A DNA stretch of 6,137 bases, from the NCBI RefSeq assembly GCF_055900595.2, contig NZ_PP320291.1. One strand, written 5' to 3'. The stretch comes from a plasmid. Position numbers: made by a program. How positions within the stretch are numbered: position 1 is the stretch's first letter; each line of letters starts with the position of its first letter. Positions 1-3,000 of this stretch are shown in pieces.

Positions 1-3000
1 GACGCGAGAATCGCCGCTAGAAATAAAGCAGAAAACACCGAAGACTAGCTGAACGCACATTTCGACAATGATGTGGACTACATCGTTGATCATAACTTCA
101 CGGTGCGCTAGCTTCCATAGAAGCCAACTAATAACAAGGAGTTAGCATGTCTGATTCAGATTTCAAAAATAGCCCTGAGTATGATGACTGGATTGAATCT
201 GGTGGTAGAGATGAAGATTACAGTTACTACTATGAAAAATGGCATAGAAGAACTCAACGATAATTCCCGCCGATAAAAGGAAAGTGATAGCACTTTCCTT
301 TTTTTATAACTGACGGCCGTTTTGTTCCGTCAACGCTCAAAGCCTCGCGATCTGTCTCCACGCTCCCAGCCTCGATCCAGTGCCTTCAGGAGCCTGTGTT
401 CCCTTTCTTTTGCAACTTGCTGACTAGCCCGGTCAAGCCCTCCAGCTGCTTGCTCAAGCCGTCCACTTGCTGCGTTAAGCCGTTCACCTGCCTCGTCAAT
501 CGCTCTGCTGCTGCCCTGCTGATCTCGGCCTCTTGTTTGGTGCTCTCGTACATGCTCGCCAAGTTCGCGTAGCTTTCCTGCCATGCCTTGTGCTGCTGCT
601 CGTATGCGCTCTGCAAAGCCTCGAACGCGCAGAGCAATTCCCGCTCCAATCCCGTCATTTAGTACCCCTTCGGCACGATCCAATAGGTATCCTTCCCCCA
701 AACGGTTGGATTGGGGTCGGAGATCTGCACGCAAAGGTGCTCCAATTTCTTCCCGCACTGGGTCAGCTTTAGCTTGCCGCCCTTCTCTGCCAAGGCTTGG
801 AGAGTGGCTTGCCGCTCCGCTATCAATTCCCCCTGATACCAGAGGATCCCGCTCGTTGCGCTCAAGAACAGGACGATGCTGACCAGCATCCAGATCCACG
901 TTTTGAGCAACAGCCAGCCCATTTTCTGGCTGTGCTCGGCAATAGCGGCGCTCATTTTCTCCTCGCTTGATTTCAACGCCCCGGAGATAGCTTTCTCGTG
1001 CCTCGTGAATTCTTCGGTCAGACGCTTCTCGATAGCGTTGGCCTGCTGCTTCGAGCTCTGCTCGAAGTCCTTCGCCATGTCTAAAATCTTGCTCATACAG
1101 CACCCCCTTTAATCGGATGTTCCGCCCCCCGTCCGGGTCGGCAATGCTCAGGCTGTTTTTGGTTTCGCGTACCACGCTGAAACCCGCACCCTGCAAGGCT
1201 TTGCGCACATCATCGCGGCTCTGGATCTCCCCTGCTCCGGCCATGCGTAAAAGCCCGTCTGTAATGGCCTGAGCGGCCTCCTTGTGCCCCCTCGGCAAAT
1301 CCTTTGGCGTGATAACGGCCTGACGGTTTAACGGATCGTCCGGGTCGTGCAATTTCAGCTCCCCGTTTACCACGGTTCGCCACGCATCGAGGCGCGGATT
1401 GTCGGCCTTGTGGAAGTAGGGTTGCAGCCGCTTCCCGCTCTGCAATTCGATGTTCGGGACTACAAAATTCAGCTCCAGCCGCCCCTTGTCGCGGTGCTCT
1501 ACCCACAAAACAGCGTACTGGTTGCCCTCCAGTCCGGGCAGGAGCGCCTTTTCAAAGTCGCTCATCAGCTTGTCCTTGGTCGCCCTGGGTAAATCAGCCT
1601 CGGCAAACGACAGAACGCCAGAGGTGTATTTTTTGGCGTAGGGACTGGAATCAATCAGGGCTTCAATCACCGCAGGGTTGCCCCGGTCGAGCGTTGCGCC
1701 TTCCCGGTTCCCGTCACGGCCCAACAAGTAGCCAACAGGCCCGGAGCCCCGGCCTACCCCACGGTTATGGAATTTGATGATCATGGTGCAGTTCCTCCAG
1801 CTCGCGGCCTATAGCGGACAGCTCCGCTATGATGCGCAGCCGATCCAACGGCCCCCACTCCCCGGAATTAACGCGCCGGGCGATCTGGTTCAGGTTGTTG
1901 CCCATTCCGGCCAACTGCCGCAAGAGCGCCGGATCTACGGTAGGCGCCGGCGTTCGGCGCTGGGGTTGCGCAACACCGAGACATTGCTCCCGCATCCACT
2001 CCGCCAGTTGGGCCTTGGGGCAGAGCTCCCGCAGGCGCTCAAGCTCCGCATCTGAGACCCGGATCTTGATAGAGCGGAGGCGCTTTAACGGCTGGCCAGC
2101 CATGCAGAGGCCTCCGCTAAGGCGTCCTCATAGAGGCTATCGAGTAGCGTCTGGAGCGCCTTTTCATCCCGAAAATCGCAGTGCTCCGGCAAGGGGAAAA
2201 CACCCCCGCCGACCTCTTCGCCGTTCTCCAGCAAACGCAGATTCCAGCCCCCGCCAAGACCGAGAGTGCGGGGGGTGATTTCGTAGTCGTATTCCGTTGT
2301 TGTGGGTTCGTCACTTACCATAGCTAACACCTCATCGGTGGAAATTTTTCCATTGATATAATCTTCAAGTAGAATTTTGAATTCATCGGTTATGGCCTCC
2401 CCCTCTAGTTGGAAACTAGAAATAACGCCATTGACTGCCTTCCTTCTCGAATCTTTCTCTATCTGTGTTGTTGACATAGGGCCTCGTCCATTCTCCAGAG
2501 CCAAGAAGCCACCGCGCAGACCGTCCCGAAGGGGCGGATCGAGCGGGGGCCACAGGGGGTTTCGGGGGGCGTAGCACCCCTGAACAAGGCCACAGAGGCC
2601 CGAGACCGCGAAGCAGGTAGAGGGGCCTCTGTGTAGCCTTGCTTAGTACATTATTCAACCATGGGCGGGATACTGCAAGCCCTAGAGCAAGATCAAGGGA
2701 AAGAGCGGCTCCGTGGATAACTGCTGCCGCCCACACCCCCGAAAAAACAGGGGGGCGATGGACGGACAGGCGCAGTTGTCCACCTCGCCAAAGATCCGCG
2801 CTAAAAGGATTTTTTAAGGCTAAAAGACAAGAGCGCAGGAACCCCCTAAAGGGGGCTATTATCTGATAAGGCTTGTTTCGATCACGGACGATCACGCTTT
2901 AGGTAAACGCTCACCGTACTGGGGGAGATTTGAAGATCGTCCGCTATATCGCGGTTGGTGTACCCCTGAGCCTTAAGCCGCAGAACCTCCGGCAATAGAT

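What the first reader, a model, noticed from the sequence alone, without database searches (positions are those of the whole stretch)
2836..2881. ColE2-type ori immediately downstream of rep, about 150 bp from candidate oriT
The ori core is nearly identical to the ColE2-P9 origin as I recall it, and differs at a few positions (ATAGCCCCC versus ACAGCGCCC). Such differences are known to set Rep-ori specificity between ColE2-family plasmids. The closeness of vegetative and transfer origins is notable for such a compact replicon.
Basis: partly seen in the sequence, partly recalled or inferred. Interest (0 to 1): 0.3.

Follow-up and report, generated by a model that had tools for sequence, protein, structure and literature searches.

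The report
ColE2-type replication origin of pOXA-232
The flagged 46 bases are the ordinary replication start site of a well-known small carbapenem-resistance plasmid (pOXA-232, ColKP3 type), which copies itself like the classic plasmid ColE2; this is expected, not new.

Summary
The window is a complete pOXA-232-type plasmid, 99.9% identical to many 6141-bp Klebsiella plasmids. These are typed rep_cluster_1195, which is ColKP3, which the literature calls ColE2-type.

One base after the rep stop codon, on the minus strand, lies TCGAAACAAGCCTTATCAGATAATAGCCCCCTTTAGGGGG. It shares an exact 16-mer, and 22 of 24 core bases, with the genuine ColE2-P9 origin; none is expected by chance. Rep has the ColE2 architecture: a primase domain, PriCT-1 and a C-terminal helix-turn-helix (HTH).

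Across 21 putative origins from 17 plasmids, TCAGATA (which holds the AGA primer site) is invariant. A hairpin with a co-varying stem follows it in 19.

- **Specificity:** of the two differences he flagged, one falls at a naturally variable position. The other is a stem base compensated on the opposite arm. The likelier specificity determinants are the 7-8 bp next to the stop codon. There the upstream CAGATAA repeat is lost, and this stretch co-varies with a replaced Rep C-terminal HTH.
- **oriT:** the candidate oriT is real-looking but lies about 190-220 bp away, not 150. The order rep, ori, oriT, mob is conserved in Aeromonas and Klebsiella relatives, so it is not remarkable.

Verdict: already known, low interest.

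The parts
2882..3829 (-). rep: ColE2-family initiator-primase, 315 aa, TTG start. It has a primase domain, PriCT-1 and a C-terminal HTH.
   Evidence: Pfam Replicase PF03090 (E 5.9e-51), PriCT_1, and GerE/HTH_23-like HTH at residues 281-312. PDB 3vw4, the ColE2-P9 Rep DNA-binding domain, matches residues 177-271 at E 3.6e-25. Identity to ColE2-P9 Rep is 51%, with FDVD and NGHAH invariant; the last ~45 aa cannot be aligned to ColE2-P9.
2851..2881 (-). ori core, the counterpart of the ColE2-P9 minimal origin: TCGAAAC AAGCCTTATCAGATAA TAGCCCCC.
   Evidence: 22/24 match to the ColE2-P9 core, with 0 expected by chance. It starts 1 nt after the rep stop. Alignment A2. The extent of the ColE2-P9 minimal origin (32 bp) is from my memory of Yagura et al. 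2006, which I could not read here.
2860..2867 (-). Family-invariant 8-mer ATCAGATA. AGA (2864-2862) corresponds to the ColE2 primer RNA sequence.
   Evidence: TCAGATA is invariant in 21 putative origins from 17 plasmids. The primer RNA is AGA according to PMC5304414.
2875..2881 (-). Left border of the ori (TCGAAAC), divergent from ColE2-P9. Probable contact site of the Rep C-terminal HTH and probable specificity determinant (inferred).
   Evidence: Plasmids with the window-type Rep C-terminus (L004, L013, L014, L015) have TGATC..AAACAA(A)GCC here. ColE2-P9-type Reps have GACCAGATAAGCC.
2840..2857 (-). Hairpin AGCCCCC-TTTA-GGGGGTT that begins inside the ori core.
   Evidence: Predicted by DNA folding. 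The same hairpin position occurs in 19 of 21 origins with differing stem sequences, e.g. GCGCC/GGCGT, GCGCCC/GGGCG, GCCCTCT/AGAGGGC. The reference plasmids have one more G.
2708..2788 (-). Conserved long hairpin between ori and oriT. Its stem carries a DnaA-box-like TTATCCACG (2720-2712). Candidate single-strand initiation site (inferred).
   Evidence: Minus-strand ssDNA fold -25.8 kcal/mol, z = -3.96. Consensus fold of 6 relatives has 27 pairs, 9 of them with compensatory changes. Alignment A4.
2580..2650 (+). Candidate oriT: inverted repeat (2591-2601 / 2623-2633, with outer arms 2580-2597 / 2629-2646) followed by the nick-region motif GTAGCCTTGCTTA (2633-2645).
   Evidence: Inverted repeats. 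Fold z = -5.0. The motif GTGTANNCTNGCTTA is shared with ColE1 at its bom region, in the same orientation relative to the mob genes. The block is conserved in Aeromonas, Klebsiella and Enterobacter relatives, and conservation ends just past the motif.
330..2103 (-). Mobilisation genes mobC (1765-2103), mobA (330-1784), with mbeB-like (659-1096) and mbeD-like (386-658) nested inside mobA. They are served by the oriT.
   Evidence: Pfam MobC, NikA-like, Relaxase, MbeB_N and MbeD_MobD. NCBIfam relax_MbeA_E1 scores 470 bits, E 8.6e-141.
3841..3953 (-). rep leader / copy-control region: hairpin with a CUUGGCGG loop, and a complementary CCGCCAA (3851-3845) just upstream of the rep start.
   Evidence: Rfam PK-repBA RF01089 scores 37.8 bits, below the gathering score of 45, E 9.5e-6. 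The same model hits upstream of rep in relatives, two of them above gathering. Alignment A6.
3828..3875 (-). 16-codon leader ORF (MDHAKQPHAANKRGGA). Its TGA stop overlaps the rep TTG start (TTGA).
   Evidence: Read from the sequence. The same start/stop overlap is kept in L015 (ATGA) and L016 (TTGA).

Best explanation
Window 2836-2881 (minus strand) is the vegetative replication origin of a pOXA-232-type ColKP3 plasmid. It is a ColE2-type (class C theta) origin.

Proposed mechanism, by homology with ColE2-P9:
1. The plasmid's own Rep binds the roughly 30-bp site that begins right after its own stop codon. Its C-terminal HTH reads the stop-codon-proximal part. PriCT-1 opens the duplex at the invariant ATCAGATA.
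2. The N-terminal primase domain makes a 3-nt RNA primer, AGA (2864-2862), on the plus strand as template.
3. Host DNA polymerase I extends the primer towards lower window coordinates, that is, away from rep and into the oriT/mob side.
4. The displaced minus strand then exposes the conserved DnaA-box hairpin at 2708-2788. This probably serves to start lagging-strand synthesis.

Shown here: sequence homology of ori and Rep, their position, family-wide invariance of the core, hairpin covariation, and replicon type.
Inferred: primer synthesis, direction of replication, Pol I dependence, which Rep module reads which part of the site, and the role of the downstream hairpin.
For: The plasmid is 99.9% identical to 6141-bp pOXA-232-type plasmids. 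PLSDB types them rep_cluster_1195. PMC11261825 equates rep_cluster_1195 with ColKP3 and ColE2-type.

Rep has Replicase, PriCT_1 and an HTH. It matches the solved ColE2-P9 Rep DNA-binding domain at E 3.6e-25. It is 51% identical to ColE2-P9 Rep, with the acidic and histidine motifs invariant.

The ori core is 22/24 identical to the authentic ColE2-P9 origin, with 0 expected by chance. It starts 1 nt after the stop codon. In 10 further plasmids the ATCAGATA core lies within 17 nt of the rep stop codon. PMC2831885 likewise states that ColE2-like origins usually lie immediately downstream of repA.

TCAGATA is invariant in 21 origins. AGA is the ColE2 primer. In vitro, ColE2 needs only ori, Rep, Pol I and SSB, and Rep is a primase. 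There is only one rep gene in the 6.1-kb plasmid.
Against: No experiment on this plasmid was available to me.

The stop-codon-proximal 7-8 bp and the upstream CAGATAA repeat of ColE2-P9 (called one of two 'iterons' in PMC4980987) are not conserved. The Rep C-terminal ~45 aa cannot be aligned to ColE2-P9. Binding geometry may therefore differ.

The short ori hairpin on its own is not more stable than shuffled sequence (z = 0.01).

The subregion boundaries and the direction of replication are taken from my memory of Yagura 2006 and Takechi & Itoh 1995, which could not be read here.
Confidence: 0.9

Rival explanations
1. The flagged hairpin (2840-2857) is mainly the transcription terminator of rep rather than a working part of the origin. 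On this view, only the ~24 bp upstream of it is the ori.
For: In ColE2-P9, Col156-type and several other enteric relatives, the hairpin is followed by a run of T and looks like an intrinsic terminator. From memory, the ColE2-P9 minimal origin ends inside the 5' arm, so the 3' arm is dispensable there.
Against: In the window and its Aeromonas-type relatives the hairpin is followed by TTCC.., not a T-run. The scan found no terminator on the minus strand there. The 5' arm always starts at the invariant AGC of the core, so the two functions overlap rather than exclude each other.
Confidence: 0.35
2. The two substitutions named by the reader (2858 C>T, 2854 G>C) are what make this origin specific for its own Rep.
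For: From my own knowledge of Hiraga 1994 and Shinohara & Itoh 1996 (not read here), small ori differences do decide specificity between ColE2-P9 and ColE3-CA38. AATAGC was seen only in the window and in L016.
Against: Position 2858 is C or T, and its neighbour A or T, in other family members. Position 2854 is a stem base whose partner changed too (2844). Edwardsiella pEI2 has the same CCCCC/GGGGG stem after ACAGC. L016 has the same right half as the window, yet its Rep has a different C-terminus and its ori a different left half. From memory, this part of the ColE2-P9 origin (subregion III) is not needed for Rep binding.
Confidence: 0.1
3. The ColE2-like motif is a relic, and replication starts elsewhere, for example at the DnaA-box hairpin (2708-2788).
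For: That element is conserved, structured and carries a DnaA-box-like sequence.
Against: The ColE2-like core is under strong conservation: the window differs from the standard ColKP3-type form only by one base in the G-run, across about 285 records. It has the invariant primer site, sits where the family origin sits, and the only initiator encoded is a ColE2-type primase. No iterons or AT-rich unwinding element accompany the DnaA box.
Confidence: 0.04
4. The nearness of ori and oriT reflects functional coupling, for example the element between them primes complementary-strand synthesis after transfer, rather than mere compaction.
For: The order rep, ori, oriT, mob is conserved in L013-L016. 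The hairpin between them is conserved with covariation and can form on either strand. If the nick is at 2641/2642 on the plus strand, this element enters the recipient within the first ~150 nt (inference).
Against: The spacing is not conserved: about 535 bp with an intervening ORF in L013-L015, against about 220-235 bp in the window and L016. Conserved order can simply reflect common descent of a small backbone.
Confidence: 0.2

Closest known systems
pOXA-232 / pKP3-A family (PlasmidFinder ColKP3, MOB-suite rep_cluster_1195)
   Same: It is essentially the same plasmid: 99.9% identity over the whole window to many 6141-bp records. Gene set, ori and oriT are the same.
   Different: There are four 1-nt contractions of G/C hexamers (2563, 2735, 2841, 2946 region at 3946) and one SNP (3649, Rep A61T). 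One contraction lies in the ori hairpin. They look like homopolymer read errors.
ColE2-P9 origin and Rep (class C theta replicon; locus L002)
   Same: - The ori directly follows the rep stop codon.
- An exact 16-mer, AAGCCTTATCAGATAA, is shared, including the AGA primer site.
- A hairpin starts at AGC in both.
- Rep has the primase, PriCT-1 and HTH architecture, 51% identity, and matches PDB 3vw4.
   Different: - The stop-proximal 7-8 bp differ, and the upstream CAGATAA repeat is absent.
- The Rep C-terminal HTH region is replaced by a LuxR/GerE-like one.
- The leader is of the PK-repBA type with a coupled leader ORF, which gave no hit in ColE2-P9.
- The ColE1-like primosome-assembly block downstream of the ColE2-P9 ori is replaced by a DnaA-box hairpin.
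Aeromonas/Klebsiella small ColE2-type plasmids (pY47-3, pAQ2-1, A. caviae BC11 p1, K. pneumoniae P3; the pAsa1/pAsa3 kind)
   Same: - Same Rep C-terminal HTH type.
- Same ori left half (TGATC..AAACAAGCC).
- Same downstream DnaA-box hairpin.
- In pY47-3, pAQ2-1 and K. pneumoniae P3: same oriT and the same order rep, ori, oriT, mobC-mobA.
- In pY47-3 and K. pneumoniae P3: same PK-repBA-like leader.
   Different: Rep is only about 47-50% identical. The ori right half is ACAGCGCCC.. instead of ATAGCCCCC... In pY47-3, pAQ2-1 and K. pneumoniae P3 a ~300-bp ORF sits between ori and oriT.
ColE1 bom/oriT with MbeA-MbeC (MOB-HEN, MOBP)
   Same: - MbeA-like relaxase, MobC, and nested MbeB/MbeD genes.
- Nick-region motif GTGTAnnCTnGCTTA, on the strand opposite the mob genes and upstream of them.
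   Different: Outside the motif, the oriT sequences do not align convincingly. MobA scores below the NCBIfam MbeA cutoff (470 versus 500 bits).

Membership tests
ColE2-type (class C theta) replicon | Initiator with an archaeo-eukaryotic-type primase domain, PriCT-1 and a C-terminal HTH | tested here: met
   Pfam PF03090, PF08708 and HTH hits. PDB 3vw4 at E 3.6e-25. FDVD and NGHAH invariant in alignment A1.
ColE2-type (class C theta) replicon | Small origin placed at or just after the 3' end of rep | tested here: met
   The ori starts 1 nt after the stop. ATCAGATA lies 14 nt after the stop, against 15 nt in ColE2-P9. PMC2831885 states this is the usual position.
ColE2-type (class C theta) replicon | Conserved core containing the primer site (ATCAGATA with AGA) | tested here: met
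   Exact at 2860-2867 (minus strand). Invariant in 21 origins. Pattern search gave 1 hit, with 0 in 200 shuffles.
ColE2-type (class C theta) replicon | Replicon typing as a ColE2-family type | tested here: met
   PLSDB gives rep_cluster_1195. PMC11261825 equates this with ColKP3 and ColE2-type. PlasmidFinder itself could not be run.
ColE2-type (class C theta) replicon | Rep synthesises a ppApGpA primer at the ori; replication needs DNA polymerase I and is unidirectional | not testable with these tools
   Known for ColE2-P9 only (details from memory of Takechi & Itoh 1995).
ColE2-type (class C theta) replicon | Antisense-RNA control of Rep translation from the leader upstream of rep | tested here: inconclusive
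   A conserved leader hairpin exists. It is of the PK-repBA kind, with UUGGCG on the sense strand; in ColE2-P9 the motif is on the antisense strand. No sigma-70-like promoter was found by the simple scan.
ColE2-P9 specificity group (same Rep-ori pair as ColE2-P9) | Same Rep C-terminal DNA-binding segment and same stop-proximal part of the ori, including both CAGATAA repeats | tested here: not met
   The C-terminal ~45 aa cannot be aligned. TCGAAAC replaces GACCAGAT, and only one CAGATAA is present.
ColE1-superfamily (MOB-HEN / MOBP) oriT | MbeA-type relaxase with MobC, MbeB and MbeD accessory genes next to the site | tested here: met
   PLSDB types the relaxase as MOBP.
ColE1-superfamily (MOB-HEN / MOBP) oriT | Inverted repeat followed by a conserved nick-region sequence upstream of the mob operon | tested here: met
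   The inverted repeat is 11/11 complementary, with fold z = -5.0. The motif is shared with ColE1 and conserved in relatives whose repeat arms differ in sequence yet remain complementary. The exact nick position is from memory.
ColE1-superfamily (MOB-HEN / MOBP) oriT | Site- and strand-specific nicking by the relaxase; mobilisation by a helper plasmid | not testable with these tools
   MOB-suite predicts 'mobilizable'. No experimental data were read.

The most novel reading that the evidence does not exclude
The ColKP3 replicon may be a distinct Rep-ori specificity class within the ColE2 family, assembled from exchangeable modules. The conserved priming core (ATCAGATA) would be combined with:
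- a replaced LuxR-like C-terminal HTH that reads a different, single-repeat left half of the origin;
- an IncB/I-complex-type leader (pseudoknot plus a translationally coupled leader peptide) instead of the ColE2-P9 leader;
- a DnaA-box hairpin instead of the ColE1-like primosome-assembly site for lagging-strand start.

ColKP3 would then be compatible with, and not cross-activated by, classical ColE2/E3 plasmids.
Probability: 0.5. Interest if true: 0.25.

Novelty: already known. Interest (0 to 1): 0.1.

Why it matters
pOXA-232/ColKP3 plasmids spread OXA-232 and OXA-181 carbapenemases worldwide. Knowing exactly where the origin and its specificity contacts lie helps in three ways: designing replicon typing, incompatibility-based curing, and mini-replicon experiments.

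That the origin is ColE2-like is already the accepted description of this plasmid, so the finding adds no new biology. The modest added value here is twofold. First, a map of which origin positions are invariant, variable or compensated. Second, the pointer that the stop-codon-proximal bases and the Rep C-terminal helix-turn-helix, not the flagged bases, probably set specificity.

Tried and rejected
**Primary papers not held.** I tried to read Yagura 2006, Itou 2015, Hiraga 1994, Takechi & Itoh 1995 (both papers) and Potron 2011. Subregion boundaries, primer strand and direction therefore rest on my memory plus secondary open-access papers.

**ColE3-CA38 not found.** Guessed sibling accessions of pColE2-P9 were absent. 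A 98.9%-identical relative (L017, encoding a colicin-like tRNase-domain bacteriocin) has an origin identical to ColE2-P9 across the stretch compared, so the ColE2/ColE3 specificity positions could not be placed.

**oriT alignment with ColE1.** A MAFFT alignment of the oriT region with ColE1 did not align the nick motifs. The resemblance holds only at motif level.

**Searches that led nowhere.** The literature searches for the exact ColE1 nick sequence and for a published ColKP3 ori description returned nothing usable. The promoter scan found no sigma-70-like promoter in 2480-4120, so no rep or antisense promoter is proposed.

**Considered and rejected.** I rejected the short ori hairpin as evidence on its own: its stability equals that of shuffled sequence. 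Only the cross-family covariation makes it meaningful. I did not run structure prediction or the large protein searches, because the family assignment was already unambiguous.
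Full report
**What the window is.** The 6137-base window is a complete small plasmid. It is 99.9% identical over its full length to many 6141-bp Klebsiella pneumoniae plasmids that carry blaOXA-232. When one of them (NZ_CP033950.1, L001) is rotated, it is colinear with the window from end to end. PLSDB types it as mobilizable, replicon rep_cluster_1195, relaxase MOBP. A 2024 genomic-epidemiology paper states that rep_cluster_1195 is PlasmidFinder's ColKP3, is also called ColE2-type, and that the reference is pOXA-232, JX423831 (PMC11261825).

**Checking the observation.** rep lies on the minus strand (2882-3829). Immediately after its TGA, the minus strand reads TCGAAACAAGCCTTATCAGATAATAGCCCCCTTTAGGGGGTTCCTG (2881-2836). 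I recalled a 57-base ColE2-P9 origin sequence and tested it. It is 100% present in many ~6.7-kb E. coli and Shigella plasmids, including the record named pColE2-P9 (NZ_KY348421.1, L002). There it overlaps the rep stop codon. The window and ColE2-P9 share the exact 16-mer AAGCCTTATCAGATAA. The 24-base ColE2-P9 core finds one site in the window (2851-2874, minus strand, 2 mismatches) and none in 200 shuffles.

**The initiator.** Rep has Pfam Replicase (PF03090, E 5.9e-51), PriCT_1 and a C-terminal helix-turn-helix. It matches the solved DNA-binding domain of ColE2-P9 Rep (PDB 3vw4) over residues 177-271 (E 3.6e-25). It is 51% identical to ColE2-P9 Rep, with the FDVD and NGHAH motifs invariant. 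The last ~45 residues do not align with ColE2-P9. The window has a LuxR/GerE-like HTH (LLPEVLRLKAQGYTNRDIADDLQISPSTVSVYLKRDRP), where ColE2-P9 has ...ALGISRATYYRKLK....

**Family comparison of the origin.** I collected 21 putative origins from 17 plasmids whose Reps range from about 33% to about 55% identity to the window's. Six results follow.
- TCAGATA is invariant, and it holds the AGA that is the ColE2 primer RNA (PMC5304414).
- The next two positions vary (A/T, then C/T). AGC is then invariant.
- A hairpin starts at that AGC in 19 of 21 origins, with different stem sequences: GCGCC/GGCGT, GCGCCC/GGGCG, GCCCCC/GGGGG, GCCCTCT/AGAGGGC and others.
- In the ColE2-P9 register, the window's G>C at 2854 is matched by C>G at 2844.
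- The window's other difference (2858, C>T) sits at one of the naturally variable positions.
- The same CCCCC/GGGGG stem occurs in Edwardsiella pEI2.

The two flagged differences are therefore poor candidates for specificity determinants.

**What does co-vary with Rep.** The 7-8 bases between the stop codon and AAGCC differ completely from ColE2-P9 (TCGAAAC versus GACCAGAT). This removes the upstream CAGATAA repeat, one of the two 'iterons' of ColE2/E3 according to PMC4980987. Plasmids whose Rep has the window-type C-terminus all have TGATC..AAACAA(A)GCC or TGATCCAATAAGCC here. These are A. caviae p1, A. salmonicida pY47-3, A. sobria pAQ2-1 and a K. pneumoniae 4.9-kb plasmid. ColE2-P9-type Reps go with GACCAGATAAGCC. 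Enterobacter pEcl-35771cz (L016) has the window's right half, downstream region, oriT and mob genes, but a different Rep C-terminus and left half. This looks like a recombination joint inside the origin. I infer that the C-terminal HTH reads the stop-proximal part and that this pair sets specificity. This is inference, not shown.

**Mechanism.** By homology, Rep binds the site and opens it at ATCAGATA. It then makes the AGA primer on the plus strand as template, and DNA polymerase I extends it towards lower coordinates. Open-access reviews confirm that ColE2 needs only ori, Rep, Pol I and SSB in vitro, and that Rep is an archaeo-eukaryotic-type primase. The strand and direction are deduced from the fact that AGA occurs only on the rep-sense strand of the core, together with my memory of Takechi & Itoh 1995.

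**oriT and its distance.** Upstream of the mob operon, the plus strand has a perfect 11-bp inverted repeat (2591-2601 / 2623-2633) with a fold z-score of -5.0. The mob operon comprises MbeA-like MobA, MobC, and nested MbeB/MbeD genes. GTGTAGCCTTGCTTA follows the repeat. This motif (GTGTAnnCTnGCTTA) matches ColE1 at its bom region, in the same orientation relative to the mob genes. The block is conserved in Aeromonas, Klebsiella and Enterobacter relatives. Conservation stops just after the motif, and the repeat arms differ in sequence between relatives yet remain complementary. It is a credible oriT. The gap to the ori is about 190 bp (2646 to 2840), or about 220 bp from the putative nick to the primer site. 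In pY47-3, pAQ2-1 and the K. pneumoniae relative, the same order rep, ori, oriT, mobC holds, but with about 535 bp and a small ORF in between. The arrangement is a lineage trait, and the closeness is not special.

**Other features seen on the way.**
- **Conserved long hairpin.** Between ori and oriT lies a conserved long hairpin (2708-2788). It has 27 consensus pairs, 9 with compensatory changes among six plasmids, and a minus-strand fold z-score of -3.96. Its stem carries a DnaA-box-like TTATCCACG. It lies on the strand that leading-strand synthesis would displace, so a single-strand initiation site is a reasonable guess. At a similar distance, ColE2-P9 instead has a block 83% identical to a ColE1 segment that I recall as the primosome assembly site.
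- **rep leader.** Upstream of rep, the leader gives a sub-threshold Rfam hit to PK-repBA. The same model hits the same place in relatives, twice above the gathering score, but gives no hit in ColE2-P9. A 16-codon leader ORF ends in a TGA that overlaps the rep start. This overlap is kept in relatives. A CCGCCAA complementary to the hairpin loop sits just before the start.
- **Differences from the reference.** The window differs from the reference plasmid by four contractions of G/C hexamers and one SNP. The 5-G form of the ori hairpin occurs in only 2 of about 285 records. This suggests read errors.

**Verdict.** The finding is real and correctly named, but it restates what is already known about pOXA-232/ColKP3 plasmids. 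The specificity remark points at the wrong bases, and the ori-oriT proximity is ordinary. Interest is low.

Noticed in passing
window 3841-3953 (minus), leader ORF 3875-3828: The rep leader resembles the IncB-type PK-repBA regulatory pseudoknot (Rfam RF01089, 37.8 bits, below gathering). It has a hairpin with a CUUGGCGG loop and a complementary CCGCCAA at 3851-3845. A 16-codon leader ORF has a TGA that overlaps the rep TTG start. The same hit recurs upstream of rep in relatives L003 and L013 (above gathering) and L015, L016, L005 (below gathering), but there was no hit in ColE2-P9.
   Followed up: partly
window 2708-2788: A long conserved hairpin lies between ori and oriT, with 27 pairs, 9 of them compensatory across 6 plasmids. 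Its stem carries a DnaA-box-like TTATCCACG (2720-2712, minus) paired to GGTGGACAA. It is a possible single-strand initiation site for the lagging strand, or for complementary-strand synthesis after transfer.
   Followed up: partly
window 2563, 2735, 2841, 3946: Each site is a run of five G/C where the 6141-bp reference has six. This explains 6137 versus 6141 bp. All four are non-coding, and one is in the ori hairpin. Only 2 of ~285 related records share the 5-G ori form, so homopolymer sequencing error is likely.
   Followed up: partly
window 3649: A single SNP relative to the reference plasmid changes Rep residue 61 from Ala to Thr, in the primase domain.
   Followed up: no
L016 (NZ_MF370188.1, pEcl-35771cz) 351-605 and 4083-4997: This plasmid shares the window's ori right half, downstream hairpin, oriT and mob genes (~95%). 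Its Rep has a different C-terminus and its ori a different left half. A class 1 integron (GES-5, aadA15) sits between rep and ori. It looks like a recombination joint inside the origin.
   Followed up: partly
L009 1625/1684, L010 1630/1711, L021 31/1098: Acinetobacter, Comamonas and Edwardsiella relatives carry two copies of the ori-like core (TCAGATA plus flanks), 59 to ~1070 bp apart.
   Followed up: no
window 2879-2896: A direct repeat CGATCACG x2 (minus strand: CGTGATCG TC CGTGATCG) straddles the last rep codons, the stop codon and the ori left border. It supplies two GATC (Dam) sites. ColE2-P9 also has two GATC sites just upstream of its stop codon.
   Followed up: no
window 2085-2504 (minus): An ORF with a VbhA antitoxin domain sits between oriT and mobC, with no Fic-type toxin gene on the plasmid. 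Its stop region overlaps the mobC start.
   Followed up: no
L002 (pColE2-P9) 4085-4161: ColE2-P9 carries, ~120-180 bp downstream of its ori, a 77-bp block 83% identical to ColE1 1306-1382. From memory, that ColE1 segment is the PriA-type primosome assembly site. The window has no counterpart.
   Followed up: partly
hits H69-H71, H213, H218 etc. (51.5-kb plasmids): The same rep (aligned only to residue 299) and the same ori segment are embedded in ~51.5-kb plasmids of E. coli, Klebsiella and Enterobacter. The ColKP3 replicon therefore also exists as part of larger plasmids.
   Followed up: no
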